A stretch of 64,000 bases of DNA from positions 45,771 to 109,770 of IMG/VR virus record IMGVR_UViG_3300033141_003979; one strand, written 5' to 3'. A program made the position numbers and the translations under genes. Positions 27,791 through 61,059 of the stretch are shown one piece after another; position 1 is the stretch's first letter, and each line of letters starts with the position of its first letter. The notes under the pieces are model-generated. The model searched no databases and was not told where the DNA came from. It saw only the letters and a program-made list of their open reading frames with translations. This DNA comes from a virus.

Positions 27791-27812
27791 GATTATCTTA
27801 ACCCACTAAAAC

Positions 27813-27934: not shown

Positions 27935-27961
27935 TACCCTATTAACAGAAAGGAGAACAAC

Positions 27962-28168: not shown

Positions 28169-28241
28169 GCCATCAAACCAAAAGGAGAAACACGAACTAT
28201 GTTGTTACCAATTCATTCTATGATAAAGGAGGTGAAAGTAG

Positions 28242-28415: not shown

Positions 28416-28443
28416 ATAAAAAATACCCGAGGAGGCAAACAAA

Positions 28444-39970: not shown

Positions 39971-40350
39971 AAAAGATTTGGCATCCTTGGTATTTATGGG
40001 AATGTTATAAGGCAGGCTTTTATTCTTCATTTTTAGATATAAAAATAGACATTGAAGATGCTCAAGAACAATACAAAGTGTTTTTATCAGATTTAAAATT
40101 GTTCGAAAGAGTATTAAAGTGCGTAATTATAGAATGGAAATATTCATGCGAACACTTTTTGACCGATAAAGGCAGGAATAGAATTGCGTGGTTGGGGCAA
40201 GCATGTATGGCGTATTATGCCGGAATACCATCCGAGGCCCGTGCTGGATTTAAGTTATTAACAGAACAGCAACAAATTAATGCCAATGCAATGGCGTTGA
40301 AATATTTAAAAATTTGGGAAAATAAAAATTCGGATAAAGTCCTTGAATGA
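39967..40350 (+). CDS. Hypothetical protein coupled to the IbrAB-like genes
   Basis: HPWYLWECYKAGFY...EWKYSCEHFLT..NRIAWLGQA; ATGA overlaps on both sides. Confidence 0.75.
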   Translation: MKKIWHPWYLWECYKAGFYSSFLDIKIDIEDAQEQYKVFLSDLKLFERVLKCVIIEWKYSCEHFLTDKGRNRIAWLGQACMAYYAGIPSEARAGFKLLTEQQQINANAMALKYLKIWENKNSDKVLE

Positions 40351-41915
40351 AAACTAAGATAAAAAAATATATTCAAATGTGGAATAATCGCGGATACACA
40401 GAAGATATTCCTGATGAAGTTCCTGAAAAATTAATGCAATTAAAATTAGCTCCGTCATATAAAGCCATAAGCATAGCAATTTTAAAAAATGACCACTCTA
40501 TGAAAAATCTCGGATTTACTCCTAAAAAATCCAAGTGGTATAATGAATTTAAACGCATAGAAATAGAAAATAGAAACAAGGAAACTTCTATGGAACAATA
40601 CAATAATCCGAGGCTACTACGAAAATACAATAAAAATAAAAACGTACATGATGCTACCAACGAACGATTTAAATTTATTTTTGATAATTTCCCAAGAATC
40701 TATTTGTCATTTTCAGGGGGAAAGGATAGTGGCATTATGCTTAATTTGGCACTAGAGTATATGAGAAAAAATAAAATAACTAAAAAAATAGGGTTGATGA
40801 TTTTAGACAATGAAGCAAATTATGAGTATTCTCTTGAGTTCATGCACAAGATAATTAGAAAAAATCTTAATTTGCTTGATGTTTATTGGTGCTGTTTACC
40901 AATTACATTACCTTGCACGGTAAGCTCATATGCTGTTGAATGGCAATGTTGGGGTGAAAGGGACAAAAAAAGATGGATAAGACCAATGCCACCTGATAGC
41001 TACATTACAAATTTTAAAAACCACAAGTTTGATTTTTTTTGGGAGGATATGAATTATGACGAATTTTGGGATAAATTTGGAGATTGGTATGGCCAAGGGC
41101 AAAGAACTGCATGTTTAATAGGTATTAGAACTGTTGAAAGCTTGAATAGATATAGAGCCATAATGAACCCAAAAAAGAAAACTCTTAGGGGGCAAATGTG
41201 GACAAAAAAGAATACTAAATATGTATATAATTGTTACCCAATATATGATTGGAGAACAGAAGATATTTGGACAGCTAATGCTAAATTTGGATGGGAGCAT
41301 AACAAATTATATGATATTTTTTATAAAGCAGGAGTACCAGTTCATAGCATGAGAGTAGCATCTCCATTTATGTCTGAATCTAAATCAAGTCTTGGGCTAT
41401 ATAGGGTAATTGATCCTCATGTTTGGGCGAAGCTTTGTGCAAGGGTTCAGGGGGCTAATTTTATTGCAACGTATGGAAAACAATTAAATTATAGATCATT
41501 TAAACTACCAAAAGGACATACATGGAAATCCTTCACAAAATTTTTATTAGATACTTTGCCAAAAGAAGTAGCTGAAAATTTTAAAATGCGCTTCATTCAA
41601 TCGTTTAAATATTGGGGAAGAGTGGGGCGCGGATTACCCAATAAAACTATAGAAGAACTAAAACAATATGATATTTCATTTAAATTAAATGGCCTTACTC
41701 ATCATGGCAGAAAAGACTTATCTAGAGTAAGAATTCAGTCACTCCCTGATCATCTTGATATGTTAAGTTGTAATAATAGTCAAGTTACTTCATGGAAGCG
41801 ATTTGCATTAACTATTTTGAAAAATGATCATACCTGTAAATATATGGGACTTGCTCCTACAAAAGAACAAGCACTTAGACAAAGACAAATAATGGAAAAG
41901 TATAAAAATATTTAG
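40347..41915 (+). CDS. IbrA/YbdN-like PAPS-reductase (PP-loop) + DUF3440-type protein
   Basis: SFSGGKDS, GIRTVESLNR, YPIYDW.TEDIW, MRVASPF, RVQGANF, ILKNDH. Confidence 0.9.
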   Translation: MKTKIKKYIQMWNNRGYTEDIPDEVPEKLMQLKLAPSYKAISIAILKNDHSMKNLGFTPKKSKWYNEFKRIEIENRNKETSMEQYNNPRLLRKYNKNKNVHDATNERFKFIFDNFPRIYLSFSGGKDSGIMLNLALEYMRKNKITKKIGLMILDNEANYEYSLEFMHKIIRKNLNLLDVYWCCLPITLPCTVSSYAVEWQCWGERDKKRWIRPMPPDSYITNFKNHKFDFFWEDMNYDEFWDKFGDWYGQGQRTACLIGIRTVESLNRYRAIMNPKKKTLRGQMWTKKNTKYVYNCYPIYDWRTEDIWTANAKFGWEHNKLYDIFYKAGVPVHSMRVASPFMSESKSSLGLYRVIDPHVWAKLCARVQGANFIATYGKQLNYRSFKLPKGHTWKSFTKFLLDTLPKEVAENFKMRFIQSFKYWGRVGRGLPNKTIEELKQYDISFKLNGLTHHGRKDLSRVRIQSLPDHLDMLSCNNSQVTSWKRFALTILKNDHTCKYMGLAPTKEQALRQRQIMEKYKNI

Positions 41916-41931
41916 AAAGGTGAGTTAAAAT

Positions 41932-42267
41932 ATGGCGGGGGCAAAAGAAAAAACTTATATAGATTGCAATGGTAAAAAAATTATTGCGATAGGACAAATT
42001 TATAAAATAATTTACCCAAATGGCAAAATATATATTGGGCAAGACAGAACAGATGATATAAATTATTTTGGAAGTGCAAATAGCCATATAATAGCAGCAA
42101 GCTTTACAAAAAAACAAAGGAGGTTATTTACTGTTACTAAAGAAATACTGTTTGAAAAAGCGCATTTAACAATTCAAGAACTAAACAGAATAGAGCGCAA
42201 ATACATTGCATTATATAATTCTGATGATCCTGTAATTGGGTACAATAGAACAAAAAGGAAGGAATAA
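41932..42267 (+). CDS. Minimal GIY-YIG domain protein
   Basis: GQIYKI..PNGKIYIGQ..YFGS...E..YI...GYN. Confidence 0.75.
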   Translation: MAGAKEKTYIDCNGKKIIAIGQIYKIIYPNGKIYIGQDRTDDINYFGSANSHIIAASFTKKQRRLFTVTKEILFEKAHLTIQELNRIERKYIALYNSDDPVIGYNRTKRKE

Positions 42268-42423
42268 AATGAGGTATTTTGGAGAATATGGTCTGTACCC
42301 TTTAAAACCACTAGATTATATTATAAATGATATAAAGAATACCAACGAAAATGATTTAATTATTAAAGAAATATTAATATTTCTTTGTAAAAAAATAGCT
42401 GTTCTTGAAAAAGAGATAAAACA

Positions 42424-42804
42424 ATGAAAGTTATACAGATTGATGAATTAAAAGATACCAAAAGAGAAGTGAAGTTTCCATGCGGAATGATTAGCAATCG
42501 AATATTGCTAAAAAAAGACGCTATGGGGTATACTTTAACAAGAACAGATATTCCAAAAGGGAACTGGCGTCATTGGCATTATAAAAATCATTTGGAAACT
42601 TGCTATTGTATATCGGGCAAGGCATTATTACACGATATCAAAACTGGTATAATATATAATATTAATCCTGGATATATATATGTTTTAAATCAAAATGATA
42701 ATCATAAATTTAAGGCATTAGAAAATACTGTTTTAATTTGTATATTTACTCCTCCATTAACTGGAGAAGAAATACATAATAGTAATGGTTCATACAGTAT
42801 CTAA
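42424..42804 (+). CDS. ectC: Ectoine synthase-like cupin (solitary EctC)
   Basis: SNRILL..D.MG, HYKNHLETCYCISG, PG.IY.L...D.H, CIFTPPLTGEEIH..NGSY. Confidence 0.8.
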   Translation: MKVIQIDELKDTKREVKFPCGMISNRILLKKDAMGYTLTRTDIPKGNWRHWHYKNHLETCYCISGKALLHDIKTGIIYNINPGYIYVLNQNDNHKFKALENTVLICIFTPPLTGEEIHNSNGSYSI

Positions 42805-42830
42805 AATTTAGACACTAGCAGTAAAAAGAA

Positions 42831-43370
42831 ATGATAGCCAAAAACCTAAAGAATAGCTGGATTCAGACCTATACAGGCAAACAATTTTTTCCATTAGCTC
42901 CAAAGATTGACCAGATCTGCATTGAGGACATTGCACAATCTCTTGGAAAGATATGCAGATTCAATGGGCATACTTTAAAATTCTATTCGGTAGCAGAACA
43001 CAGTATCTATGTCAGTCATTATGCTTCTGAGAAGAACTCCTTATGGGGCTTATTGCATGATGCTGCAGAGGCATATCTAGGGGATATAGTTAGGCCATTA
43101 AAGCCATTTCTGAATGGATACAAAGAAATAGAAAAGAATCTAAGTAAATGCATAGCCAAAAAATTCAATCTTGAATGGCCGATGCCAGAGGAAATCAAAC
43201 AAATTGATATAGCAATACTACATGACGAATCGATTCAAGTTATGGGTAAAAAGCCACAAGCATGGTCTCAGCTTAGCCTGTCTCCGCTTGGGGTTAGAAT
43301 AATAGGTTTTGATTATAGTGATGCAACCCGAATATTTCTAGAAAGATATCAAGAATTGGTTAAATGCTAA
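42831..43370 (+). CDS. HD-domain phosphohydrolase (YfbR/YfdR-like)
   Basis: IEDIA..L..ICRFNGH..FYSVAEHS, LLHDAAEAYLGDI..PLK. Confidence 0.9.
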   Translation: MIAKNLKNSWIQTYTGKQFFPLAPKIDQICIEDIAQSLGKICRFNGHTLKFYSVAEHSIYVSHYASEKNSLWGLLHDAAEAYLGDIVRPLKPFLNGYKEIEKNLSKCIAKKFNLEWPMPEEIKQIDIAILHDESIQVMGKKPQAWSQLSLSPLGVRIIGFDYSDATRIFLERYQELVKC

Positions 43371-43381
43371 TAAAAATAATC

Positions 43382-43411
43382 TTTTGAAACTTTGATATTT
43401 TCTTATAATAA
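43382..43411 (+). promoter_or_regulatory. Repeated phage promoter-like motif, copy 2
   Basis: Identical 30-mer. Confidence 0.75.
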
Positions 43412-43451
43412 AACATATGAAACATAACCCAAAAGTAAAAGGAGAAAGAAG

Positions 43452-44081
43452 ATGGCAGAAGAAAACGGAATAGCAAAAGCAGAATTGGTAGTAGCAGCCG
43501 AAGAATTGAATGAAAAGATTCTAACTAAAGAAACGGCAATCAAAATTACCGGAAGAAAGGCAACATCAGACCAGCTTGAGAAAGATATCAAAGATGCGGC
43601 TGCACTGATCAACCCTGAAGACCAATTTTCCGAAGAAACCTGGAAAGTCCTGAGAGAAATGGCGATAGAGGGGCTTCCGCAGATTCCTGTTAATGATAGC
43701 CCTCAGACAAGTGAAGTTGTTGAAGAATCGATGGTAGAGACAGAAAAAACAGAATTGGCTACAGGCAAGACTGATAATACTCCCGAGAAGCAAGCAGATA
43801 GCTTACAGGACAAGCCGGAAGCTACAGGTGAAGGGCAAACTAAGGGGAAAGCAGGAAAAGCCGTTAAAAAGGCTGAGGCGAAGCCGAAGGGAAAGAAAAA
43901 AAGAAACAAGGGAATTGGTGAATTTGTACGTTCCGGCCTGATTGACGGATCTTTTAAGGGGATGAAAAACGCAGAAATTGCAAAATTGGCCGTAGAAAAA
44001 TTTCACGGAAACACAAAACCTTCTTGTATTGGTTGGTATAAGAACAAATTGCAAAAAAGCAATATTGAAATAAATATTTAA
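43452..44081 (+). CDS. Hypothetical protein with acidic linker and basic HTH-like C-terminus
   Basis: SD AAGGAG; follows the repeated promoter motif. Confidence 0.7.
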   Translation: MAEENGIAKAELVVAAEELNEKILTKETAIKITGRKATSDQLEKDIKDAAALINPEDQFSEETWKVLREMAIEGLPQIPVNDSPQTSEVVEESMVETEKTELATGKTDNTPEKQADSLQDKPEATGEGQTKGKAGKAVKKAEAKPKGKKKRNKGIGEFVRSGLIDGSFKGMKNAEIAKLAVEKFHGNTKPSCIGWYKNKLQKSNIEINI

Positions 44082-44093
44082 AAAAAACAAAAC

Positions 44094-45173
44094 ATGCAGT
44101 ATTTTGATTTTTCATATAAATGGCAACTAAAGACTGGATATCCAAAAAAGAAAAATGGCTATTTTGTTTTTAGTTGTTTTGCCTGTGGTGGCGGTTCAAC
44201 AATGGGATATAAATTAGCCGGATATGATGTTTTAGGGTTTAATGAAATAGACCCTAAAATGGCAGAATGTTATATTGAAAATCATAATCCCAAATATCAA
44301 TTTATAGAACCTATACAAGAATTTAAAAATAGAAATGATTTGCCAAAAGAATTATTTAATCTTGATATTCTTGATGGTTCACCCCCATGTTCAAATTTTT
44401 CAATGGCAGGCAATAGAGAAAAAGACTGGGGCAAAAAGAAAAAATTTAGAGAAGGGCAACAAGAACAAGTTCTTGATATCTTATTTTTTGATTTTATTGA
44501 CCTTACTAAAAAATTACAGCCTAAAATTGTAATTTCAGAAAATGTTCCAGGAATTTTAATGGGAACGGCATTTCAATATGTTCAAAAAATATATAAGGAT
44601 TTTAAAAATGCGGGATATTATACAATTCATAGACTTTTAGATGCATCAAAAATGGGAGTCCCTCAAAAAAGAAAACGGGTATTTTTCTTTTCAATTAGGA
44701 AAGATTTAATAAAACATATTGATACATATGATTTTTTTGATGAAAATCCTAAAATTGATTTAATGTTTAATGAGAAGGGAATTTTATTTAAAGAAATAAA
44801 AACAAATTCAAAAAGAAAAACTATTCAAAAAACAATTCAAGATGCTTATCATTATTGCACAATTAATAAAAATTCTGATTTTGCGCAATATTTTGAAAAA
44901 ATAAGTGGCAAAAGAAAATATTTTAACACACGATTGATTTTTAATAATGAAATTTGCAGCACAATAAAAAGTGACTGCACTCATATTATTGAAGGGGAGA
45001 AAGCATATATAAATAATGAGGAAATAAAAAAGGCAAGCACATTTCCTAATGATTATAATTTTAAAAAAAACAAAGTTGATTATTTATGTGGAATGTCAGT
45101 TCCACCAGTAATGATGGCGCAAATATCAAAACAAATTGAAATTCAATGGCTTGATAAAATTTATCAAAAATAA
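44094..45173 (+). CDS. dcm: DNA (cytosine-5)-methyltransferase
   Basis: FACGGG motif I, GSPPC motif IV, ENV, QKRKR. Confidence 0.93.
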   Translation: MQYFDFSYKWQLKTGYPKKKNGYFVFSCFACGGGSTMGYKLAGYDVLGFNEIDPKMAECYIENHNPKYQFIEPIQEFKNRNDLPKELFNLDILDGSPPCSNFSMAGNREKDWGKKKKFREGQQEQVLDILFFDFIDLTKKLQPKIVISENVPGILMGTAFQYVQKIYKDFKNAGYYTIHRLLDASKMGVPQKRKRVFFFSIRKDLIKHIDTYDFFDENPKIDLMFNEKGILFKEIKTNSKRKTIQKTIQDAYHYCTINKNSDFAQYFEKISGKRKYFNTRLIFNNEICSTIKSDCTHIIEGEKAYINNEEIKKASTFPNDYNFKKNKVDYLCGMSVPPVMMAQISKQIEIQWLDKIYQK

Positions 45174-45627: not shown

Positions 45628-46689
45628 ATGGCAAGACGAACAAGGCAAACAGTAGAGGCAGAACCACAAACACAAGCAAATGAAGTTAATCGACAAGATC
45701 TCATTGATGCCCTGACTAAAGTCAACCCCGGTTTGGCAAAAAAAGAATTGATTGAGCAGTCAACCCATTTCATTTTTGACGACGACAAGATTTGGACTTA
45801 CAATGATCAGATCACTATTATGCATAAATTCAACACCGGATTAACAGGGGCTGTCAAGGCAGAGAAATTCTTCAAGCTTCTTGATAAAATCCCCGATGAA
45901 ACAATCCAGATCTCAGGTACCGAAAAGGGGAAAATAAAACTCTCCGGCAAAAAGATCAAGGCCACTATCAATATTGATCCAGATATCAAACTTCAGCCCA
46001 TCCAGGTTCCCGGCATCAATTCTAAGCAGTGGGAGGAGTTGCCTAAAAACTTCTCAGATGCCATCGCTTTTGCCGCCTTTTCGGCAAGTCGAAACATGGC
46101 CCGACCAGAACTTACTTGCATTTGGATTACGGACGGGCAGGCCGTATCATGCGATTCCTACCGGGGCACCAAATATCAGTTGGATTCCAAGATGGAGCAG
46201 GACTTTCTTCTCCCCGCAACAGCCGCAGTAGAGCTGGCAAAGTATACCCCCTACAAAATCATTATTGACGGGGGATGGCTGCATTTCATCAATAATGAGA
46301 AAACCTCATTTTCCTGCCGGACATATTATGATGAAGAATATCCCGCAATGATCTGGAAGTTCTTTGAAATAGAAGGGCAAAAGATAGTGCTCCCAGACGA
46401 CTTTCTTGATGCAATCGGAAGGGCAGAGATCATGCTGACTGCGGACTTTGATCTTGATCGATTTGTATTACTAACTATGGAGGCCAATACATTAACCTGT
46501 AAAGGGGAGGGGATATATGGAGAGTTTGAAGAAACTACAGATATTGATTACAGCGGGGAAAAGATTGAAATCAAGGTCCATCCTGTTCTGCTCTCGCAAA
46601 TCCTAAAGCACATCCAGGTTATGGTTGTTGGAGAAAGGCTCCTATTTCATGGGGATAAATTTCAGCATGGAGTTTGTTTGAGCTGCTAA
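45628..46689 (+). CDS. DNA polymerase III beta (sliding clamp)-like protein
   Basis: About 350 aa; ASRNMARPELTCIWI...SCDSYRG, EEYP; context with DnaE/DnaX. Confidence 0.75.
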   Translation: MARRTRQTVEAEPQTQANEVNRQDLIDALTKVNPGLAKKELIEQSTHFIFDDDKIWTYNDQITIMHKFNTGLTGAVKAEKFFKLLDKIPDETIQISGTEKGKIKLSGKKIKATINIDPDIKLQPIQVPGINSKQWEELPKNFSDAIAFAAFSASRNMARPELTCIWITDGQAVSCDSYRGTKYQLDSKMEQDFLLPATAAVELAKYTPYKIIIDGGWLHFINNEKTSFSCRTYYDEEYPAMIWKFFEIEGQKIVLPDDFLDAIGRAEIMLTADFDLDRFVLLTMEANTLTCKGEGIYGEFEETTDIDYSGEKIEIKVHPVLLSQILKHIQVMVVGERLLFHGDKFQHGVCLSC

Positions 46690-46701: not shown

Positions 46702-47250
46702 ATGAAAAAGATACCAACTATATTTAAACGTAATCCCAAAAATATGCGAGAACTCTTAGATGAAGTTCATCCAGATTGTTTATGGGTATTCGCTGGCGAG
46801 GGGATAGCGACCAGAAAGTATGACGGCACATGCGTAAAAATAGAAGACGGAAAATATTTTAAACGGAGAGAAGTTAAGAGAGGTAAAAACGCACCCACTG
46901 ACTTTATTGAAGAACAACTTGACGAAAATACAGGCAAACGAGTTGGATGGGTGCTTGTTGACCCAAACTCTAAAGAGGATCAATGGCACATGGAAGCTTT
47001 CAACACATCCTTCATTGACGGTACATATGAACTTGTCGGGCCTAAAATCCAAGGGAATCCTGAAGGGCATGGGCGCCATGCTCTTATAAAGCATAGCGAG
47101 GCGGGTATTTTTGGCAATGCACCACGAACACTGGATGGTATCGCAGAGTTTTTAAAGGACAAAAATATAGAAGGGCTTGTATTTCATCACCCCGATGGTC
47201 GGATGGGTAAAATCAAAAAGAAGGATTTTCAACAAAAGAGGATTCCATGA
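46702..47250 (+). CDS. RNA ligase-like nucleotidyltransferase (DUF5565-type)
   Basis: ATRKYDGTC (KxDG), YELVGPKIQGNP, IEGLVFH..G.M.KIK. Confidence 0.75.
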   Translation: MKKIPTIFKRNPKNMRELLDEVHPDCLWVFAGEGIATRKYDGTCVKIEDGKYFKRREVKRGKNAPTDFIEEQLDENTGKRVGWVLVDPNSKEDQWHMEAFNTSFIDGTYELVGPKIQGNPEGHGRHALIKHSEAGIFGNAPRTLDGIAEFLKDKNIEGLVFHHPDGRMGKIKKKDFQQKRIP

Positions 47251-50200
47251 CAGGTTTCTGCCACATCCATACCCATAATGAGTTCAGTTATCTTGATGGG
47301 TTCGGCTCTGCAAAACACTACATTGCCAAAGCAAAAGAACTAGGCATGCTGGCAATTGCCATAACAGATCATGGCGTGGTCGATGGTTGTATCGAGTGGC
47401 AAAAGGAATGTGACAAACAGGAAATGGGGTGTATTTTAGGGGTAGAAGCTTATATCGTTCCAGACGCCAATATCAAAAAGAAGGAAGATAAGCCTGCCCA
47501 TATTACAATTCTTGTTCGTAATACTGCTGGCTGGATTGAGTTATGCAAACTTCTAACAAGGGCAAACCTAACAGGGTTTTATCGCAAACCCCGCCTAGAT
47601 TTCAATACTTTACTCAATGCAGATTTATCCGGCCTTATCATTCTCACTGGATGCTCAAATTCATTCTTGAATTTGCCTGGCGGAATTGAAACTCTAAAAG
47701 AAATGCAGGATAGAATGAAGGGAAGAATCTATCTTGAAATTATGCCGCATGATTTTCCTGTCCAATATGAACATAATAATCTAATCCAGAAACTACATGA
47801 AAAACATGATATCCCATTAGTAGCAACAAATGACTGCCACTACATTGAAGAGGAAGACTGGGAGGCCCAGGAAATCTTGCTAGCCATTCAGACCAAAGCC
47901 AAGTGGGATGATCCGAAGCGGTGGCGCTTCGGGATTAAAGGATTACATCTTAGGACAGAAAGAGAGATGCTATTTGCATTCAGGAAACACTCTTTTTCTT
48001 CTAAGCAGATTGAACAGGCAATAGGCAATACAGTTAAGATCGCAAAACTATGCTGTGAGTTCAGAATTCCAAAACAGGAGATCAGTTTGCCTTCCCCTTA
48101 TGACAAAATCAATGATAATAAATTTCTGGATAAACTATGTTGGCAACAGATCGATAAAGAAAAGTTAGATGATGATTATCAAAATCGATATCTCCATGAG
48201 TACCGTCTCATCAAGAAGAAAAAGTTTGCAAGATATTTTCTCATCGTCTATGACATCATCCAGCATTGCCATAGAGAAGGTATTGCGGTTGGCCCCGGAA
48301 GAGGAAGTATCGGAGGGTCACTGATCGCCTATTTGTTGGGCATTACACAAGTTGATCCCATCAAATTCCATCTATCTTTTGCTAGATTCATTAGTGAAAA
48401 TCGTATCGACTGGCCGGACATAGACCTCGATTTCGAGACACGTCATAGAGAAAAGGTCCGCGAGTATCTATGTGATAAATACGGGAACAATAATATCTGC
48501 GGCATCTCTACAGAAATGAAGATGAAAAGCAAGGCTGCCCTGAGAGATGTAGGGAGAGTATTTGACATTCCTGCGGCAGATGTAGATGAAGTCACCAAAG
48601 CCATCAGGCAAAAGGAACACGAGCACGGAAGTGGCATTCAATCCGTAATTGATAAAACCAAAGAAGGAGAGAGATTCGCAAGGAAATATCCAAAAATAGT
48701 CAAGTTTGCCAAAAAGATGGAAGGCCATGTCCGGGGCAGTGGACAACATGCGGCGGCAGTCATCATATCAGACGAAGACTTGTCTGAGGGGAAGAAATGT
48801 GTCCTTGTCAGGCGTAAAGATAGAATTGTTTGCAATTGGAATATGAAAGACTGTGAATATGTTGGGTTGATGAAACTAGATGTTTTAGGATTGTCCACAT
48901 TATCTGTATTGGCAGAAAGTGAAAGATTGATTCAAGATATTCCTCTTGAAAGATTTAATCTTAACGACACCCCATTAGATGACAAAAAAGTATTTGACCT
49001 CATCAACAAAGGGGGGACTGCCGGAATGTTCCAAATTTCTGCAACTCCAACTACAATACTTTGCAAGGAAATGGGAGTTAACAATTTTGAAGATATTGTT
49101 GCCGCAATTGCCCTAGTCCGGCCCGGACCAGCAGATTCGGGGATGACAGAAAAATATCTCAAAAGAAAACACGGAGAGGCTTGGGAAAAGAAACATCAAA
49201 TATATGAAGAGATTACTAAACATACTTATGGCATCCCGGTTTATCAAGAACAAATCATGCAGATAATCAGTCGTGTAGCAGGATTATCTGAAAGTACCGC
49301 AGATGAAATTCGCAAAGTAATTGGAAAGAAAAGAGATCCAAAAGAATTTGAACTATATCGAAAACAGTTTAAGAAGGGTTGTAAAAAAGCAAAAACCCTA
49401 TCAGAAAAGGAAGCAGATGATTTTTGGAAAGGATTGTTAAAGTGGGCTAGTTATGGATTTAATCGTGCCCATTCTGTTTCCTATGCCTTGATTGGCTACT
49501 GGACAGGATGGTTAAAGGCAAATTACCCAGCAGAGTTTATTTGTGCTTCACTTTCCTATGGGGATTTCGACGACAAGTCATCGGATCTTGCCAAACAAAA
49601 GAAACCGCTCCTTGAGGAAATAATAAAACTTGGCATCACAATTATGCCTCCGAAAAAAGATTTATCAGATCCTACAAGATGGACGGTTAAGAATAATAGA
49701 TTATACGTTCCATTTATAGAGATAATTGGAGTAGGGGAAACTCAAGCACAAAAATGTGCACAGAGCAAAAATACACAAACACGGCTAAAAAGCTTTTTTG
49801 GAAAAGAGTATCTTCCTGAAAAGAAAAACAAGATTGACACAATCCTTGACGAACTTAAAGTGTTCGACCCAGAAGTAATTCCATCATCGAAAGTCTTGTC
49901 AAGATATCTCCCTTTCAGCATTGAAAAAGAAGAGTCGTATTGTGGGTTAAAAGAAGTTCTTGGTTTTAGTTTCCCTAGAAAAGAAATCCCTAAATGGAAA
50001 ACCCTTTATATTCCAAAATATCGTCTTCCTCCTGGATTAATCAGGCAAGCCCGCTTTCGCAATAGCAATTTAACAAAGTGTAGAAACTGTGAACTCGTAA
50101 ATGAATGTAGAGCCCCTGTCATGCCTTCCTGTGGAATGTTTAATGTAATGATAATTGGCGAAGCTGCTGGCCCACAGGAGGACGAATATGGTAGGGGATT

Positions 50201-50669
50201 CTATGAAGAGGCCCCTGCAGGAGAATTGTTATGGGAAGAACTTGCATTATACGATCTAACAAGACGTATGTTCCATGTCACAAATATTGTTAAGTGTTAT
50301 CCAGGAAAGCAGATCAAGACCCCAACCGCTAAACATATCGTTGCCTGTAGTTCATGGCTAAAAGAAGAGTTCACCAAACTCCAACCAAGATTGGTATTAG
50401 CCATTGGAAATACATGTGTCAAGGCATTCACCGGGCAAGATGGTGGCATTCAAAAATTAAACGGCACAACTCAGTGGATAGAATCATTAGAGGCCTGGGT
50501 TTGCTGGTGCCTCCATCCAGCGGCAGTCAAGAGGGCAGGCAGTAATAGGGAATATTTTGAGAGAGGGATCAGGAATTTTTCAGCAAAGTTTGCTATATTG
50601 AAGCCTATAAAAACCAAAGGAGGATCTATTGATGATCCTTATAATATAGGAGATGATATCCCGTTTTAG
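47247..50669 (+). CDS. dnaE: DNA polymerase III alpha subunit fused to a C-terminal family-4 uracil-DNA glycosylase-like domain
   Basis: PHP (HTHNEFSYLDG, ITDHG, TNDCHY), GPGRGS, PDIDLDF, KLDVLGL, YGFNRAH; then CRNCEL, IGEAAG..ED..G..F, TNIVKC, LHPAA. Confidence 0.93.
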   Translation: MTGFCHIHTHNEFSYLDGFGSAKHYIAKAKELGMLAIAITDHGVVDGCIEWQKECDKQEMGCILGVEAYIVPDANIKKKEDKPAHITILVRNTAGWIELCKLLTRANLTGFYRKPRLDFNTLLNADLSGLIILTGCSNSFLNLPGGIETLKEMQDRMKGRIYLEIMPHDFPVQYEHNNLIQKLHEKHDIPLVATNDCHYIEEEDWEAQEILLAIQTKAKWDDPKRWRFGIKGLHLRTEREMLFAFRKHSFSSKQIEQAIGNTVKIAKLCCEFRIPKQEISLPSPYDKINDNKFLDKLCWQQIDKEKLDDDYQNRYLHEYRLIKKKKFARYFLIVYDIIQHCHREGIAVGPGRGSIGGSLIAYLLGITQVDPIKFHLSFARFISENRIDWPDIDLDFETRHREKVREYLCDKYGNNNICGISTEMKMKSKAALRDVGRVFDIPAADVDEVTKAIRQKEHEHGSGIQSVIDKTKEGERFARKYPKIVKFAKKMEGHVRGSGQHAAAVIISDEDLSEGKKCVLVRRKDRIVCNWNMKDCEYVGLMKLDVLGLSTLSVLAESERLIQDIPLERFNLNDTPLDDKKVFDLINKGGTAGMFQISATPTTILCKEMGVNNFEDIVAAIALVRPGPADSGMTEKYLKRKHGEAWEKKHQIYEEITKHTYGIPVYQEQIMQIISRVAGLSESTADEIRKVIGKKRDPKEFELYRKQFKKGCKKAKTLSEKEADDFWKGLLKWASYGFNRAHSVSYALIGYWTGWLKANYPAEFICASLSYGDFDDKSSDLAKQKKPLLEEIIKLGITIMPPKKDLSDPTRWTVKNNRLYVPFIEIIGVGETQAQKCAQSKNTQTRLKSFFGKEYLPEKKNKIDTILDELKVFDPEVIPSSKVLSRYLPFSIEKEESYCGLKEVLGFSFPRKEIPKWKTLYIPKYRLPPGLIRQARFRNSNLTKCRNCELVNECRAPVMPSCGMFNVMIIGEAAGPQEDEYGRGFYEEAPAGELLWEELALYDLTRRMFHVTNIVKCYPGKQIKTPTAKHIVACSSWLKEEFTKLQPRLVLAIGNTCVKAFTGQDGGIQKLNGTTQWIESLEAWVCWCLHPAAVKRAGSNREYFERGIRNFSAKFAILKPIKTKGGSIDDPYNIGDDIPF

Positions 50670-50953: not shown

Positions 50954-51052
50954 AATCTGTCCAAAATGTTTTTCACGCATGGTTAAGCTAGAATTAATCT
51001 GGATTTGCTCACAGTGCCAACATGTTATCATAAAGACAAAAGAAGAAATAGT

Positions 51053-51970
51053 ATGCGAATAATAATTGATGCAAACAACATCGGATATGCAATGTTCCAT
51101 GCCATGGGACCGGACAAGATTGCCTTCGGATTCCTCAAGCAAATTGTAGCTCTGTCAAAGACTTTTGAAACAAACAGATTCATTTTCTGCTGGGATTCAA
51201 AACATTCTTATCGCAAAACCTTATACCCTGCCTATAAAAGCAACAGGAGAAAGGACCTAGACCCATTTCAACAAAGTCAGTTAAAACTTGCCTTCCAGCA
51301 ATTTAATAAACTGAGGGAAGAAATCCTCCCGGCCTTGGGATTCCAAAATGTCTTCATGCAAGATGGCTACGAGGCAGACGATCTCATCGCCTGGATAACA
51401 TATCGATGCCCAGATCAGACTACCATAGTCAGTTCAGATCATGACCTCTGGCAATTGCTCACAGACGACAAATTCAATCCTGTTCAAATCTATACAGTTG
51501 CTAAAAAGAAAACATTTACTGTTGCCGGCTTCAGATTGGGTTGTGAAGGATTAGAACCTACGGAATGGGCAACTGTCAAGGCTATGGCTGGATGCTCCGG
51601 CGATAATGTTGCCGGGATAGTGGGGGTAGGGGAATTGACCGCTATACGATATCTTACTGGATTATTGCCAGACGGGAAAATAAAAAAGAAGATTGATACA
51701 CCTGAATCAAAAGAACTGATAACAAGGAATCTTCCTTTGGTCTTTTTGCCATTTGGAGGAGAGGCCCCGATTCAAATCTCACTTGATGAGAAAGAGGTCT
51801 TTTCCAAAGAGGGCTTAAAGAGGGTGTTTAGAGAACTAGGATTCATGTCATTTCTGAAAGGGGACGTTGAACAGTGGGGCCAGTTTCATGGCAAGGGAGG
51901 AAAGAAGCAAAAACAAGAAATTGACAAACCTGAATCAATCAGTGGAACAATCAAAGCATTTACATTATAA
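51053..51970 (+). CDS. 5'-3' exonuclease / flap endonuclease
   Basis: IIDAN, WDSK.SYRK.LYPAYK.NR, YEADDLIA, SSDHDLWQL, DNVAGIVGVGE.TA. Confidence 0.92.
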   Translation: MRIIIDANNIGYAMFHAMGPDKIAFGFLKQIVALSKTFETNRFIFCWDSKHSYRKTLYPAYKSNRRKDLDPFQQSQLKLAFQQFNKLREEILPALGFQNVFMQDGYEADDLIAWITYRCPDQTTIVSSDHDLWQLLTDDKFNPVQIYTVAKKKTFTVAGFRLGCEGLEPTEWATVKAMAGCSGDNVAGIVGVGELTAIRYLTGLLPDGKIKKKIDTPESKELITRNLPLVFLPFGGEAPIQISLDEKEVFSKEGLKRVFRELGFMSFLKGDVEQWGQFHGKGGKKQKQEIDKPESISGTIKAFTL

Positions 51971-52020: not shown

Positions 52021-52025
52021 TATGT

Positions 52026-52128
52026 TAGATAATAAAGTAACAAATCATTCAAATTTCAGGCTTGAGAATCTTCATATTGCGAAGTATGAAGGCGTTGTTA
52101 CTAACGTTATCTGTTCTCAGGCCTTTTT
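52026..52128 (+). ncRNA. c4 antisense-like three-way-junction RNA, copy 1
   Basis: P1 AGGCTTGAGAA/TTCTCAGGCCT, P2 with GCGA tetraloop, P3 GCGTT/AACGT, U-tract; upstream complementary sites TAGATAA and AGTAACAA. Confidence 0.7.
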
Positions 52129-52144
52129 ATTTGGAGAGTCTAAT

Positions 52145-53074
52145 ATGGGTGAAAATAAAAGAATTTTAGGTGTTTGTTTTTATTGTGGAAAGAATGCATT
52201 TTATAGATTTAAAAATGGGAAATTATGTTGTAGCAATAATGTTTCTAAATGCCCAACCGTAAGAAAAATCAATAGTGAAAAAAATAAATTTAAATTTTGT
52301 AAAATTGAACATGCTAAAAGAAAAGCAGAAGGAGGACCGATATGTGCATGTGATTGTGGCAACAGAACAAAATGGAATAAAGACAAAGGAGAATATAATA
52401 AATATATAAATGGACATTGGGTTCGACATAACAATCCTAGTCGTGGTAAAGATAAATATGCTAAAAAAAAGAGAAGAAGGAGCCCATTATGTAAATGTAT
52501 CCCTCAATGCGGACAAAGAACAAAATGGAATCCTTGCACAGGAAAATATGATGATTATATCAAATATCACCATTTAAAAGGAGCCAAAAGAGACAAAAAG
52601 TTTTGTGAAAATCAATCTAAAAGAATGATTAAAAATAACCCTATGCAAAAACCAGAAATTGCTAAAAAGCAATCAGAAAGTTTAAAGGCGTTAGGTGACG
52701 ATCATCCATCAAGAAGACTAGAGCACCGCAAAAGAACATCTGAATATGCATTAAATGGGCATGCAACCTATATGTGTTCTTGCAATTCAAATCCATCTAA
52801 GCCACAAGCAGTATTATTTGAATTGATTAAATCTTTATACTCAACTGCTATACTCAATCATCCATCCTTAAATTTTTCTATTGATATAGCCATTCCTGAT
52901 CTAAATATTGCTATTGAATATGATGAGCCGTATTGGCATGATTTTGAAAAGGATAAAATAAGACAAAGAAAATTAGAGACAATAGGATGGAGATTTTTAA
53001 GATATATAAGTTATGTACCCACCATCAATGAATTAAAAAATAATATTTTAAATATAATTAACAAGGAGGGATAA
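52145..53074 (+). CDS. Free-standing endonuclease (Cys motifs + DUF559/Vsr-like PD-(D/E)xK domain)
   Basis: CACDCG..TKWN; C-terminal IDIAIP..NIAIEYDEPYWH...D..RQ..L...GWRFLR. Confidence 0.8.
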   Translation: MGENKRILGVCFYCGKNAFYRFKNGKLCCSNNVSKCPTVRKINSEKNKFKFCKIEHAKRKAEGGPICACDCGNRTKWNKDKGEYNKYINGHWVRHNNPSRGKDKYAKKKRRRSPLCKCIPQCGQRTKWNPCTGKYDDYIKYHHLKGAKRDKKFCENQSKRMIKNNPMQKPEIAKKQSESLKALGDDHPSRRLEHRKRTSEYALNGHATYMCSCNSNPSKPQAVLFELIKSLYSTAILNHPSLNFSIDIAIPDLNIAIEYDEPYWHDFEKDKIRQRKLETIGWRFLRYISYVPTINELKNNILNIINKEG

Positions 53075-53076
53075 AA

Positions 53077-54024
53077 ATGTCTCTGTATCAGGATTATCGG
53101 CCAAAAAATTTCGGTGAGATTGTTGGAAATAAAACAACCATCAATACAATAAAAAATAAAATTTATGGGGAAGACCCACCGCATGCAATTATTTTACACG
53201 GTCCAAGAGGATGTGGAAAAACTACTATCGCCAGAATTATATCAGAAGAATTAGGATGTAAAATTAAAAGTAACGATTTTGTTGAACTTGATGCTGTTCA
53301 AACGGGAGGAATTGATACAGCTAGAGAAGTTAGGCAAAATATGAATTTTTTACCAATGGAATCAAAATGTAGGGTTTGGCTTATTGATGAGGCTCAAGAT
53401 GCTTCAGGCAAATTCCAAGCTGGTCTTTTAAAAGCATTAGAAAGCGGCCCAGCCCATTGTTATTTTATTTGGTGTACTACAGATTTAAGTAAAATTATTA
53501 CAACTGTTAAATCAAGATGTACTCAATGGAAGGTTAATTTATTAAAAGACTCACAAATAGAAAAATTGATTGCATGGGTTCTAAAAGGGGAAGAGTTTAC
53601 AATCGACCAGAAGATAATTGATGAAATTATTGCCGCCTCCGAAGGTTGCCCAAGAGAGGCTCTAGTGACTCTAGATCAAATCATTGACCTAGAGCCTGAT
53701 AAAATGATTAATGCCATCCAGCAGACCAAAGCCGACAGGGAAAGCAAGGAATTATGTCAGGCTCTACTCAAGAAAGAATCATGGCCGAGGCTAGCAACAA
53801 TTATCAAAGGCCTTGATCCCTCTAATCCTGAAAGTATCCGGCGAGCTGTGATTGGGTATATGGCAAATGTGGCTCTGGATAAGCAGGGGTATAACAAAGG
53901 GAACAAGGAAAGATGGGAAGGAGTGGCTGTACGAGCAGCTCTTGTGTTTGATTGTTTTGAAAAACCTGTCTTTTATACCGGTATGGGAGGGATTACATTT
54001 GCGGCCTATAACACAACTTTATAG
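53077..54024 (+). CDS. dnaX: Clamp loader, DnaX (gamma/tau)-like AAA+ ATPase
   Basis: LYQDYRP..F.EIVG, GPRGCGKTT, IDEAQ, SRC, EGCPREA. Confidence 0.9.
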   Translation: MSLYQDYRPKNFGEIVGNKTTINTIKNKIYGEDPPHAIILHGPRGCGKTTIARIISEELGCKIKSNDFVELDAVQTGGIDTAREVRQNMNFLPMESKCRVWLIDEAQDASGKFQAGLLKALESGPAHCYFIWCTTDLSKIITTVKSRCTQWKVNLLKDSQIEKLIAWVLKGEEFTIDQKIIDEIIAASEGCPREALVTLDQIIDLEPDKMINAIQQTKADRESKELCQALLKKESWPRLATIIKGLDPSNPESIRRAVIGYMANVALDKQGYNKGNKERWEGVAVRAALVFDCFEKPVFYTGMGGITFAAYNTTL

Positions 54025-55789: not shown

Positions 55790-56926
55790 ATGAGGAGAAG
55801 AAAAAAAATGAGCAAGACAAAAGCAGAAGAGAGAAGAGAAAAATTACGGAACAGAAGTAGACAGGCCGTCAAGACTAGAGATCAGAAAGGTTTGGGGAAG
55901 AAGTCGGCACTCGATTGGGCAAGGCTTGTAGGAAAGAAACCTCCAAATTTCATCCCTACGACTGGAAAGGATAATCTAAATCTGATTGACATCTTGCCAT
56001 TTGTTATTACACAATCCTGGTATAAAGATCTGCGAACATTCTCAGGCCTAACAACCAATCTAGAAGTTGGTGACTGGGATTATAAATTGGAGATCCCAGT
56101 GCATAAAAATGTAGGGGAAGACAACGATACCTTCCTTTGCCTCCGTCTAGCCTTTGGAAAGAAATGCCCTCTCTGTGAGGAAATGTTTAAAGAATATGAA
56201 AAAGACAATCCTGATGAAAAAAAGATCAAACCATTGAAGCCATCCTGGCGGGATTATTTCAATATCTATGATTACAACGATGAAGACAAAGATCTCCAGG
56301 TTTGGGAAGATGTCAGTTATCATCTTTTTGAGAAGTACTTTCTTGCAGAGGCAGACGAGGGGGAGAATACTATCCTATATAGCGACATTGAGGAAGGAAA
56401 AACTATTGAGATCAAGGCTCAGGATAAAACTATAGGTTCAGGGAAACCATTTCCTGAAGCCCAAAATATTGAATTCAAAAATAGGGATAAATACGAAGAA
56501 GAAATTGTCAATGATACTGTTTCTTTTGATTCCTTAGTCAAGATTCCTACATTTGAAGATGTCTCACGAATCCATCGTGGACTAGAAGATGAAGGAACCC
56601 CTGACCAAGAAAAAGTACCAGCAGGGGAAGAACCTCCTGCTCCATCAGGAAGAAGGCGACAAACCAGGCAACAACCAGCAAAAGAGGAAAACCCTCCGTC
56701 TGAAACACAGGATCAAGACCAGGCCTCCGGCCCTGCCTGCCCATACAAAAAAGTATTTGGGGCAGATTGTGATCCGACCGCAGATGAATGCAAAAAATGT
56801 CCGGAGGAAACTTTCAGTACCTGTGCCGATAAGTTGGATGAGATAGAAAAAGGTGAGAAGGAAACCCCTCCGCCGCCTGCAACTACCACGCGTCGTAGAA
56901 GGCAACAGCCAGGCAATAGAAGGTAA
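55790..56926 (+). CDS. gp32-like single-stranded DNA-binding protein with extended C-terminus
   Basis: IDILPF, VH..VG....FLC...GKKCPLCE, LKP..R..FN; context. Confidence 0.6.
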   Translation: MRRRKKMSKTKAEERREKLRNRSRQAVKTRDQKGLGKKSALDWARLVGKKPPNFIPTTGKDNLNLIDILPFVITQSWYKDLRTFSGLTTNLEVGDWDYKLEIPVHKNVGEDNDTFLCLRLAFGKKCPLCEEMFKEYEKDNPDEKKIKPLKPSWRDYFNIYDYNDEDKDLQVWEDVSYHLFEKYFLAEADEGENTILYSDIEEGKTIEIKAQDKTIGSGKPFPEAQNIEFKNRDKYEEEIVNDTVSFDSLVKIPTFEDVSRIHRGLEDEGTPDQEKVPAGEEPPAPSGRRRQTRQQPAKEENPPSETQDQDQASGPACPYKKVFGADCDPTADECKKCPEETFSTCADKLDEIEKGEKETPPPPATTTRRRRQQPGNRR

Positions 56927-60913: not shown

Positions 60914-60938
60914 TTTTCTCTAAAAGAAAGACTATACT
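60910..60938 (+). promoter_or_regulatory. Sigma70-like promoter of endonuclease cassette 2
   Basis: TTGATT-N17-TATACT. Confidence 0.65.
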
Positions 60939-60944
60939 TATGTT

Positions 60945-61047
60945 GAACAGTATGATAACGATCCAGAATTCAGAGCTTGAGAGTTTTCATGTCGTGAGGC
61001 ATGGAAGTGTTGTTATCGACACTGTTCCCTCTCAGGCTTTTTCTTTT
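60945..61047 (+). ncRNA. c4 antisense-like three-way-junction RNA, copy 2
   Basis: P1 AGAGCTTGAGAG/CTCTCAGGCTTT, P2 with GTGA tetraloop, P3 GTGTTG/CGACAC, U-tract; upstream complementary sites GAACAGT and GATAACGA. Confidence 0.7.
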
Positions 61048-61059
61048 GGGGAAATTGAC

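What the first reader, a model, noticed from the sequence alone, without database searches (positions are those of the whole stretch)
47247..50669. Family-C polymerase fused to a family-4 UDG domain and ending in an SSB-like DDIPF tail
Seen: after the DnaE core, the usual OB/C-terminal region appears shortened and is followed by a UDG4-like domain with four Cys, GEA.G, TN.VKC and HPAA. The protein ends ...YNIGDDIPF. Established: UDG-like domains are known fused to family-A phage polymerases (SPO1 type), and DDIPF is the bacterial SSB C-terminal docking tip. The gp32-like SSB here ends in Arg-rich sequence instead. Inference: a replicase that scans for uracil or modified bases and itself recruits host SSB-interacting repair proteins.
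Basis: partly seen in the sequence, partly recalled or inferred. Interest (0 to 1): 0.7.

Follow-up and report, generated by a model that had tools for sequence, protein, structure and literature searches.

The report
Phage DnaE polymerase with UDG and SSB-like tail

Summary
ORF 47247-50669 (+) encodes 1140 aa: PHP, Pol III alpha palm, fingers, an HhH region, then a family-4 UDG domain instead of the OB and tau-binding domains, then a disordered 22-residue tail ending GDDIPF.

The fusion is not an artefact. Over 100 protein clusters and at least 545 IMG/VR contigs carry it. It is not new either: Timinskas et al. 2014 described DnaE with OB and CTD replaced by an archaeal-type UDG. An A-family polymerase-UDG fusion was shown in 2026 to excise dU ahead of the fork.

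In this clade the four Fe-S cysteines and the catalytic motifs are kept in 94-100% of 117 sequences. Cultured relatives (A. baumannii 107-kb plasmids, Rhizobium phages) have degenerate motifs.

The tail is not conserved family-wide. D[IV]PF arose at least four times on the polymerase and is retained in one sister pair. Seven ORFs in 80 related loci end [DE][DE][IVLM]PF, against 0.03 expected. Six are replication proteins (polymerase, three gp32-like SSBs, a clamp loader, a DnaQ-like exonuclease) and one is unassigned; there is one per locus.

Best reading: co-replicative uracil excision plus a portable SSB-tip mimic that docks host SSB-interacting proteins. Neither the tail's partner nor glycosylase activity has been tested. 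An earlier first-reader note of this scan flagged the same stretch.

The parts
47247..50669 (+). Whole gene: DnaE-type (C-family) polymerase fused to UDG4, with an SSB-tip tail; 1140 aa plus stop
47262..47750 (+). PHP domain (aa 6-168). Possible intrinsic proofreader: no DnaQ-like exonuclease was found in the genome
   Evidence: Pfam PF02811 1e-29; no PF00929 match in the complete genome
48123..49391 (+). Pol III alpha palm/NTPase (aa 293-548) and fingers (aa 551-715). Catalytic Asp391, Asp393 and Asp545 are invariant in relatives
   Evidence: Pfam PF07733 8e-78 and PF17657 3e-44; invariant columns
49392..49799 (+). HhH / beta-binding region (aa 716-851), ending in the conserved G/S-F-F motif (SFF 849-851, nt 49791-49799). 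This is a candidate internal clamp-binding motif at the position of E. coli alpha QADMF
   Evidence: NCBIfam DnaE alignments end at residue 851. F850 and F851 are each present in 107 of 117. Pfam HHH_6 is found in cultured homologues
49902..49916 (+). Second conserved aromatic motif (RYLPF 886-890; family consensus K-Y-F-x-F). In UDG-less relatives this motif is the very C-terminus
50064..50600 (+). Family-4-type Fe-S uracil-DNA glycosylase domain (aa 940-1118): Cys945, Cys948, Cys1017, Cys1034; GEAAG 971-975; Asn1013; His1090
   Evidence: Pfam 1e-20. NCBIfam UdgX / Arch_udg / UDG_fam4 hits, all below cut-off. PDB sequence hits. AF2 pLDDT 90.9. Foldseek 1l9g / 1ui0 TM 0.83-0.84. Conservation
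50601..50666 (+). Disordered 22-residue C-terminal tail ending in the SSB-Ct-type tip DDIPF (nt 50652-50666)
   Evidence: Block-mean pLDDT falls to 48 and 42 over the last 15 residues, with two segments below 50. Tail statistics and phylogeny
45628..46689 (+). Phage beta-type sliding clamp, the probable processivity partner of the polymerase
   Evidence: phrog_947 2e-34; family profile against PDB beta clamps, 3e-22
53077..54024 (+). Clamp-loader ATPase
   Evidence: phrog_5846 2e-51; Pfam DNA_pol3_delta2
55790..56926 (+). gp32-like SSB with an Arg-rich C-terminus and no DDIPF tip

Best explanation
This is the replicative polymerase of a complete, roughly 110-kb tailed phage that carries its own replisome. 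The replisome comprises an initiator, a DnaB-like helicase, a primase, a beta clamp, a clamp loader, a gp32-like SSB and a FEN.

The polymerase core is DnaE-type. The OB fold and tau-binding domain of cellular DnaE are replaced by a complete Fe-S family-4 UDG domain.

Most likely mechanism, all inferred:
1. The enzyme rides on the phage beta clamp through the conserved aromatic motifs in the linker (SFF 849-851, RYLPF 886-890).
2. The UDG domain occupies the place of the template-side OB domain. It removes uracil from DNA as it is replicated, as shown experimentally for A-family polymerase-UDG fusions.
3. The disordered tail ending DDIPF mimics the C-terminal tip of bacterial SSB. It docks one or more host SSB-interacting proteins onto the phage replisome.

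The phage itself has no recognisable DNA ligase, AP endonuclease, dUTPase or DnaQ-type exonuclease. It must therefore borrow downstream repair and sealing functions from the host.

Shown: architecture, fold, motif conservation, non-random distribution of the tail. Inferred: glycosylase activity, position of the domain relative to the template, identity of the tail's partner.
For: **Architecture.**

**The fusion recurs.** More than 100 clusters, nearly all annotated PF03167 plus DnaE domains, on contigs up to 137 kb. At least 545 IMG/VR contigs encode a relative.

**UDG fold.** AF2 pLDDT 90.9. Foldseek gives TM 0.83-0.84 and rmsd 2.1-2.2 A to T. maritima and T. thermophilus family-4 UDGs.

**Catalytic and Fe-S residues, out of 117 sequences.**
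- Cys945 114, Cys948 114, Cys1017 117, Cys1034 117
- Glu972 110, Asn1013 112, His1090 111, Pro1091 117

**No UdgX covalent-trap loop**.

**Tail.**
- Disordered.
- The D[IV]PF end needs at least 4 independent gains on a tree built from core columns only. It is kept in the L085/L091 sister pair at 64% identity.
- 7 ORFs end [DE][DE][IVLM]PF in 80 related loci against 0.034 expected. Internal occurrences are 4 against 5.3 expected.
- The carriers are the polymerase, three gp32-like SSBs, a clamp loader, a DnaQ-like exonuclease and one unknown protein, one per locus.
- The exonuclease ends FDDDIPF, identical over 7 residues to the E. coli SSB tip (established knowledge).

**Genes not found in the complete genome.** Ligase, Xth/Nfo, dUTPase, ThyA/ThyX and DnaQ.
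Against: - No activity or binding has been measured.
- The window's protein alone has Ala in place of the Pro of GEAPG, which is Pro in 110 of 117. This could weaken catalysis.
- The UDG domain was lost at least 6 times. 6 of the 8 other members of the window's closest supported clade lack it. It is therefore dispensable.
- Cultured relatives have degenerate UDG motifs, so a non-catalytic role exists in the wider family.
- NCBIfam family-4 models score below their cut-offs.
- Most family members have no tail.
- The host is unknown, so its SSB tip and SSB-interacting proteins cannot be checked.
- The host enzymes the phage most obviously lacks (ligase, AP endonuclease) are not among the classical SSB-tip binders known from E. 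coli (my knowledge, not tested).
Confidence: 0.5

Rival explanations
1. The UDG domain is a non-catalytic DNA-binding or processivity module that replaces the OB fold. This is the role proposed for the UDG-like domains of SPO1 and T5 polymerases and shown for poxvirus D4. Uracil excision is not its selected function.
For: - Kazlauskas and Venclovas 2011 proposed this role for SPO1 and T5.
- Cultured DnaE-UDG proteins (A. baumannii plasmids, Rhizobium phage) have lost the GEAPG, VKC and HP motifs.
- The domain was lost repeatedly.
- The window protein has GEAAG.
Against: - In this clade the catalytic Glu, Asn and His and all four Fe-S cysteines are kept in 94-100% of 117 diverged sequences at 43-65% identity. 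That is hard to explain without selection on the active site.
- The phage already has a beta clamp for processivity.
- The A-family fused UDGs are active.
Confidence: 0.25
2. The DDIPF tail is a phage-internal docking peptide rather than a mimic aimed at host proteins. Candidate partners are the phage beta clamp, clamp loader, helicase/primase or gp32-like SSB. The analogy is to the C-terminal clamp-binding tail of T4/RB69 polymerase or the acidic Phe-ending tails of T7 gp2.5 and gp4.
For: - The non-SSB carriers (polymerase, DnaQ-like exonuclease, clamp loader) are the classical clamp clients.
- The location at the C-terminus is typical of clamp-binding peptides.
- A sister clade ends DEILF or DEILY, which loosely resembles QL[SD]LF.
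Against: - The tip matches the bacterial SSB-Ct consensus exactly, up to FDDDIPF, and also occurs on SSBs.
- There is only one carrier per locus, and only one in the complete genome. All clamp clients would need a clamp motif.
- Two conserved aromatic motifs in the linker are available in every family member for clamp binding.
- The tail is absent from most members, which have the same clamp.
Confidence: 0.25
3. The tail is a neutral C-terminal extension that resembles the SSB tip by chance. The fusion could also be an assembly or frameshift artefact.
For: Only 5 of about 120 family members carry it, and the immediate relatives of the window protein lack it.
Against: - C-terminal occurrences are about 200-fold above expectation, while internal occurrences are at expectation.
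- At least 4 independent gains, with retention in a diverged pair.
- Six of the seven carriers are replication proteins.
- The fusion is seen in hundreds of independent assemblies.
Confidence: 0.04

Closest known systems
DnaE variant with a C-terminal archaeal-type UDG ('DnaEX' architecture; Timinskas, Balvociute, Timinskiene, Venclovas 2014, NAR 42:1393, PMC3919608). I also found it in A. baumannii ~107-kb plasmids and Rhizobium phage RHph_N1_10
   Same: Same domain order: PHP, Pol3, fingers, HhH, UDG (PF03167), with the OB and CTD domains replaced. The elements are of similar size (105-117 kb) and share a polymerase, gp32-like SSB, FEN and recombinase neighbourhood.
   Different: - Only about 29% identical.
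- Their UDG domains have degenerate motif A, no VKC cysteine and no HP histidine. The window's clade keeps them all.
- No DDIPF tail.
- No function has been reported for the C-family fusion in the papers I could search.
SP15-like A-family phage polymerases fused to an active UDG (YerA41, phiLo; Missoury et al. 2026, PMC13697223; PDB 9qhs)
   Same: A replicative phage polymerase covalently linked to a UDG. The experimentally shown mechanism (dU excision in the template ahead of the active site, then AP-site bypass) is the best model for how this protein works. There is a weak fold and sequence match of the UDG domains.
   Different: - A-family not C-family polymerase.
- The UDG is N-terminal not C-terminal.
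- Those phages have hypermodified thymidine and encode PolX and a ligase. This genome shows no ligase or thymidylate-synthase homologue.
- Processivity there comes from insertions; here a beta clamp is encoded.
Free-standing family-4 UDGs (T. thermophilus UDGA 1ui0, T. maritima 1l9g/1vk2, S. tokodaii 4zbx) and M. smegmatis UdgX
   Same: Same fold (TM 0.81-0.84), four Cys Fe-S ligands, motif A Glu, Asn of TNxxKC and His of HPA/S.
   Different: - Scores fall below the NCBIfam cut-offs for UDG_fam4, Arch_udg and UdgX.
- Lacks the UdgX KRRIH insertion and its covalent-trap His.
- Has a 2-residue insertion after the GxGF segment, present in about a sixth of the family, and GEAAG for GEAPG.
- Fused to a polymerase.
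Bacterial SSB C-terminal tip (SSB-Ct, DDDIPF), the hub for SSB-interacting proteins such as chi, PriA, RecQ, ExoI, DnaG, Ung and RNase HI
   Same: Identical terminal residues (D-D-I-P-F-COOH) at the end of a disordered, acidic linker. In sister phages the same tip sits on gp32-like SSBs.
   Different: The carrier is a polymerase, not an OB-fold SSB tetramer. It is present once per monomer. Binding partners are untested.
Poxvirus D4/E4 UDG with A20/A22 and the E9/F8 polymerase; acidic Phe-ending tails of T7 gp2.5 and gp4; T4 gp43 C-terminal clamp-binding tail
   Same: These are precedents for a UDG as a built-in replisome part, and for short C-terminal tails that wire phage replisome components together.
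   Different: - Non-covalent assemblies.
- Different polymerase families.
- Different tail sequences.
- These tails bind viral partners.

Membership tests
C-family DNA polymerase, DnaE type | N-terminal PHP domain | tested here: met
   PF02811 1.1e-29, aa 6-168
C-family DNA polymerase, DnaE type | Pol III alpha palm with catalytic aspartates, plus the fingers domain | tested here: met
   PF07733 7.6e-78 and PF17657 2.9e-44. TIGR00594 726.6 bits, above the 434 cut-off. D391, D393 and D545 are invariant among relatives
C-family DNA polymerase, DnaE type | (HhH)2 / beta-binding domain after the fingers | tested here: inconclusive
   There is no Pfam HHH_6 hit in this protein. However, DnaE equivalog alignments run to residue 851, a GVGETQ hairpin-like motif lies at 828-833, and HHH_6 is detected in cultured homologues
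DnaE1 (cellular replicase subgroup) | C-terminal OB fold and tau-binding CTD | tested here: not met
   No match beyond residue 851 to any DnaE model. All equivalog scores are below their cut-offs. The UDG domain is found in that place
Family-4 uracil-DNA glycosylase | UDG alpha/beta fold closest to family-4 structures | tested here: met
   AF2 pLDDT 90.9. Foldseek 1l9g TMt 0.83 and 1ui0 TMt 0.84, E about 1e-12
Family-4 uracil-DNA glycosylase | Four cysteines ligating a 4Fe-4S cluster | tested here: met
   C945, C948, C1017 and C1034 are present and kept in 114-117 of 117 relatives. Cluster binding itself was not measured
Family-4 uracil-DNA glycosylase | Motif A GE[AG]PG, Asn of TNxxKC, motif B HP[AS] | tested here: inconclusive
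   E972, N1013 and H1090 are present. Motif A reads GEAAG, and the Pro is Ala only in this protein
Family-4 uracil-DNA glycosylase | Curated model score (TIGR00758 or NF040953) | tested here: not met
   81.6 bits against a cut-off of 125.3, and 86.4 against 250. It is a divergent member of the superfamily, not an equivalog
Family-4 uracil-DNA glycosylase | Uracil excision activity | not testable with these tools
   Needs a glycosylase assay
UdgX (covalent uracil-DNA binding protein) | KRRIH loop insertion with the cross-linking histidine | tested here: not met
   The alignment to UdgX shows gaps of 6 and 2 residues where the loop lies, and VKC in place of VKH
SSB-Ct-type docking tip | Extreme C-terminal acidic residues followed by [IVL]-P-F-COOH, on a disordered linker | tested here: met
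   The sequence ends GDDIPF. Block-mean pLDDT of the last 15 residues is 42-48
SSB-Ct-type docking tip | Binds the SSB-Ct pockets of SSB-interacting proteins | not testable with these tools
   The host is unknown. Needs peptide-binding assays
Beta-clamp-binding motif (QL[SD]LF / QLxLxL) | Consensus sequence in the C-terminal tail | tested here: not met
   DDIPF has no Gln or Leu at the consensus positions. The conserved linker motifs SFF and RYLPF are better candidates

The most novel reading that the evidence does not exclude
The SSB C-terminal tip is a portable module in this phage group. Each replisome appears to carry it on one component, which may be the polymerase, gp32-like SSB, clamp loader or proofreading exonuclease. 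Through it the phage replisome plugs directly into the host's SSB-interaction network, for example for restart, primer removal or completion of the base-excision repair that the fused UDG starts, without using a bacterial-type SSB.
Probability: 0.35. Interest if true: 0.7.

Novelty: new variant of a known kind. Interest (0 to 1): 0.5.

Why it matters
**Replication-coupled uracil repair.** The C-family polymerase-UDG fusion is abundant in uncultured phages but functionally unstudied. With its catalytic residues intact, this clade is the natural place to test whether the coupled uracil repair just shown for A-family phage polymerases also evolved on the DnaE scaffold.

**SSB tip on other proteins.** The SSB-type tip on a polymerase, and on a clamp loader and an exonuclease in sister phages, suggests that the SSB interaction hub can be exploited by proteins other than SSB. 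This would be a simple and testable way for phage replisomes to borrow host enzymes. It is also a caution for anyone who identifies SSBs by their tails.

Tried and rejected
- **Complex prediction.** The phage beta clamp (two copies, 40-row alignment) was folded with tail residues 1106-1140. The tool gave no answer: ipSAE 0.02 and 0.01, and controls were not run. I count this neither for nor against clamp binding.
- **The look-up of encoding contigs was closed.** Because of this, the contexts of P0002 and P0083 could not be fetched by identity. The P0083 context was recovered as L014 through IMG/VR.
- **No close relatives found.**
  - Megablast of the gene against GenBank phages gave no match.
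  - Exact-pattern search of JGI metagenomes with the C-terminal 265 aa found no close relative.
  - As a result, persistence of the tail within the window's own species-level lineage could not be checked.
- **Alignment A2 was too diverse** for a metagenome scan.
- **The second metagenome scan** with A1 returned mostly cellular dnaE loci. It did add two tail-bearing polymerases, L085 and L091.
- **The SSB family profile against the PDB** gave only a marginal RB69 gp32 hit, E 0.76. The gp32 assignment therefore rests on Pfam and PHROG hits of homologues and on the zinc-site spacing.
- **UdgX identity was considered.** UdgX is the best PDB and NCBIfam hit. I rejected it because the covalent-trap loop is absent.
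- **T-hypermodification was considered,** as in SP15-like phages. No thymidylate-synthase-like gene was found.
- **Literature searches** for DnaE-UDG function and for an SSB-Ct tip on polymerases found nothing beyond PMC3919608. The library is limited to open-access papers and preprints.


Full report
**What is there**

The window is the right-hand 64 kb of a 109,770-bp IMG/VR virus record. The record has direct terminal repeats and CheckV rates it 100% complete.

ORF 47247-50669 (+) is uninterrupted and encodes 1140 residues. Pfam finds four domains:
- PHP, aa 6-168
- DNA_pol3_alpha, aa 293-548
- fingers, aa 551-715
- UDG (PF03167), aa 966-1105, E 1e-20

Alignments to cellular DnaE models run from residue 3 to residue 851 and stop there. 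No OB fold or tau-binding domain follows.

- CxxC at 945-948
- GEAAG at 971-975
- TNIVKC at 1012-1017
- Cys1034
- HPAA at 1090-1093
- DDIPF at 1136-1140, as the last residues

**The fusion is real, common and already described**

A search restricted to the C-terminal 261 residues, among proteins of polymerase length, returned 17 DnaE-plus-UDG clusters.

The full-length search listed 120 relatives at 43-65% identity. Nearly all are annotated with PF03167 together with the three DnaE domains. They lie on contigs of up to 137 kb, and several carry inteins. IMG/VR holds at least 545 contigs that encode a relative.

The architecture is in the literature. Timinskas et al. [quoted passage not shown]

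I also found it in Acinetobacter baumannii ~107-kb plasmids and in Rhizobium phage RHph_N1_10, annotated simply as dnaE.

**The UDG domain**

The AlphaFold2 model of residues 876-1140, built with 52 aligned relatives, has a mean pLDDT of 90.9.

Foldseek places it with family-4 UDGs and UdgX. Against T. maritima 1l9g and T. thermophilus 1ui0 it gives TM 0.83-0.84 and rmsd 2.1-2.2 A.

By sequence the best solved relatives are M. smegmatis UdgX and then 1ui0. The UdgX-specific loop with the cross-linking histidine is absent, and the family-4 VKC cysteine is present. NCBIfam family-4 models match but fall below their cut-offs, so this is a divergent lineage.

Across 117 fused relatives the functional residues are kept:

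| Residue | Kept in (of 117) |
|---|---|
| Cys945, Cys948 | 114 each |
| Cys1017, Cys1034 | 117 each |
| Motif-A Glu972 | 110 |
| Asn1013 | 112 |
| His1090 | 111 |

This pattern argues for selection on the active site.

Three caveats apply:
- The window protein alone has Ala where 110 of 117 have the Pro of GEAPG.
- The domain has been lost at least six times. 6 of the 8 other members of the window's closest supported clade lack it.
- The cultured A. baumannii and Rhizobium proteins have degenerate motifs (TDCPN or TDAPN, no VKC cysteine, SP or NP for HP).

The wider family therefore contains both catalytic-looking and clearly non-catalytic versions.

**How it probably works**

The phage encodes a nearly complete replisome in the same module:

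| Component | Coordinates | Evidence |
|---|---|---|
| Primase | 33099-33995 | phrog_47, 1e-30 |
| Initiator | 35865-37139 | |
| DnaB-like helicase | 37568-39085 | |
| Beta-type clamp | 45628-46689 | family profile against PDB beta clamps, 3e-22 |
| FEN | 51005-51970 | |
| Clamp loader | 53077-54024 | |
| gp32-like SSB | 55790-56926 | |
| UvsX-like recombinase | 57405-58565 | |

Two aromatic motifs in the linker are conserved in almost every family member: G/S-F-F at 849-851 and K-Y-F-x-F at 886-890. The first sits where E. coli alpha has its internal clamp-binding motif. The second is the extreme C-terminus in UDG-less relatives. These are the likely clamp contacts.

For the UDG domain the best functional model is the 2026 study of SP15-like A-family polymerases. 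There the fused, active UDG excises dU from the template ahead of the polymerase site and the AP site is bypassed (PMC13697223).

In cellular DnaE the OB domain that this UDG replaces lies near the incoming single-stranded template. That point is from my knowledge of published Pol III alpha structures and was not tested here. It makes a template-side position plausible.

The polymerase-fused UDG is the only UDG in the genome. I found none of the following:
- dUTPase, ThyA or ThyX
- Xth or Nfo
- ATP- or NAD-dependent ligase
- DnaQ-type exonuclease

Any repair that starts with uracil excision must therefore be finished by host enzymes.

**The tail**

Block-mean pLDDT falls to 78 over residues 1116-1125 and to 48 and 42 over the last 15 residues, so the tail beyond about residue 1119 is modelled as disordered.

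The tail is not a family feature. Most relatives end about 20 residues earlier, at a '...KFELLK' or '...LLGGLK' type of end. The tail is nevertheless clearly non-random.

- **On the polymerase.**
  - A D[IV]PF end occurs in five polymerases: the window, P0002, P0083/L014, L085 and L091.
  - On a tree built only from core columns 1-851, this needs at least four independent gains.
  - L085 and L091 are sisters at 64% identity. Both keep DIPF while the preceding residues differ.
  - A separate clade of seven ends DEILF or DEILY.
- **On other proteins (80 IMG/VR loci).**
  - Seven ORFs of 4335 end [DE][DE][IVLM]PF against 0.034 expected.
  - The same pentapeptide occurs internally 4 times against 5.3 expected.
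  - The carriers are the L014 polymerase, three gp32-like SSBs (L028, L037, L072), a clamp-loader ATPase (L073), a DnaQ-like exonuclease ending FDDDIPF (L049) and one 170-aa unknown (L070).
  - There is one carrier per locus.
- **In the complete genome of the window** only the polymerase has it.
- **In about 70 cellular dnaE loci** fetched as a by-product, no ORF carries it; the only one in that set is the L085 phage-type polymerase.

The Arg-rich end of the gp32-like SSB is the norm in this group: 25 of 55 are basic. It occurs whether or not the polymerase has the tail. SSBs that carry the tip keep a basic stretch before it. The polymerase tail is therefore an addition, not a simple swap with the SSB.

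**Interpretation of the tail**

The tip is identical to the bacterial SSB-Ct consensus. It also sits on SSBs in sister phages, and there is a single carrier per replisome. Together these favour a mimic that docks proteins evolved to bind the host SSB tip.

The main rival is that it binds a phage partner, above all the beta clamp. Polymerase, proofreading exonuclease and clamp loader are the classical clamp clients. That rival is weakened by three points: the conserved linker motifs, the presence of the tip on SSBs, and its absence from most members, which have the same clamp.

The one complex prediction I ran (clamp dimer plus tail) gave no answer and counts neither way. The partner remains unknown.

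**Novelty and verdict**

The DnaE-UDG fusion is a known, widespread architecture, and a functional precedent for a polymerase-tethered UDG now exists. On that count this is a new member of a known kind. It is notable for an intact active site, unlike the cultured examples.

I did not find two observations in the searchable literature: the SSB-type tip on a polymerase, and the tip moving among replisome proteins of one phage group. Both are directly testable. I therefore rate the whole as a new variant of a known kind, with interest 0.5.

An earlier first-reader note of this scan (e1-6019139) flagged the same stretch as a DnaE-UDG fusion. It adds nothing independent.

Noticed in passing
window 55790-56926 (+) and alignment A4: The gp32-like SSB family of this phage group has a gp32-type zinc site (H105, C117, C126, C129). 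It also has a second conserved Cys4 cluster (C317, C334, C337, C345) and usually an Arg-rich C-terminal end. A minority end acidic or with a DDIPF-type tip. I do not know the role of the Arg-rich end.
   Followed up: partly
L001, L028, L034, L042, L046, L063-L067, L070-L073, L076, L078: UDG-less polymerases of the same family (about 890-935 aa) often end in aromatic tails such as ...YFIF, ...LFSF or ...IFTF. These align with residues 886-890 of the window protein and probably form a C-terminal clamp-binding motif.
   Followed up: partly
P0005, P0010, P0034, P0044, P0054, P0061, P0085, P0093, P0100, P0103, P0107, P0114; L041, L049, L058, L079: Many homologues are 1350-1540 aa and carry intein domains (PF14890) inside the polymerase. 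L062 has the gene in two ORFs separated by about 580 nt.
   Followed up: no
window 46702-47250 (+): A 182-aa gene matching phrog_14301 ('RNA ligase', 4e-57) overlaps the polymerase start codon by 4 nt (ATGA), which suggests translational coupling. I did not examine its role.
   Followed up: no
window 39224-45173 (+): A cluster of four genes: a ParB-like protein (phrog_2159), a PAPS-reductase-like protein (phrog_2302, 4e-106), a dNMP phosphatase (phrog_318, 42831-43370) and a DNA methyltransferase (phrog_116). This may be a DNA-modification or nucleotide-pool module.
   Followed up: no
window 52022-53074 (+): A homing-endonuclease-like ORF (phrog_3339; Pfam MTES_1575 nuclease, weak) sits between the FEN and clamp-loader genes. 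Further HNH endonuclease-like ORFs lie at 60910-62024.
   Followed up: no
whole genome G000 (109,770 bp): The complete phage genome has no detectable DNA ligase, dUTPase, thymidylate synthase, AP endonuclease or DnaQ-type exonuclease, despite an otherwise full replisome. The PHP domain may be the proofreader.
   Followed up: partly
L082:10780-11667 (A. baumannii plasmid NZ_CP035046.1): A hypothetical protein two genes downstream of the plasmid's dnaE-UDG ends ...LDLDIPV, an SSB-tip-like acidic end. The Rhizobium phage gp32-like SSB ends in an acidic amphipathic stretch.
   Followed up: no
P0046 and P0107: Two relatives are filed in NCBI under Patescibacteria / candidate division WWE3 genome bins. 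These may be mis-binned phage contigs, or a hint at the hosts of part of this phage group.
   Followed up: no
window about 27000-28500: GC skew and gene orientation switch here. Long minus-strand genes lie to the left (not annotated here). The plus-strand replication module lies to the right.
   Followed up: no
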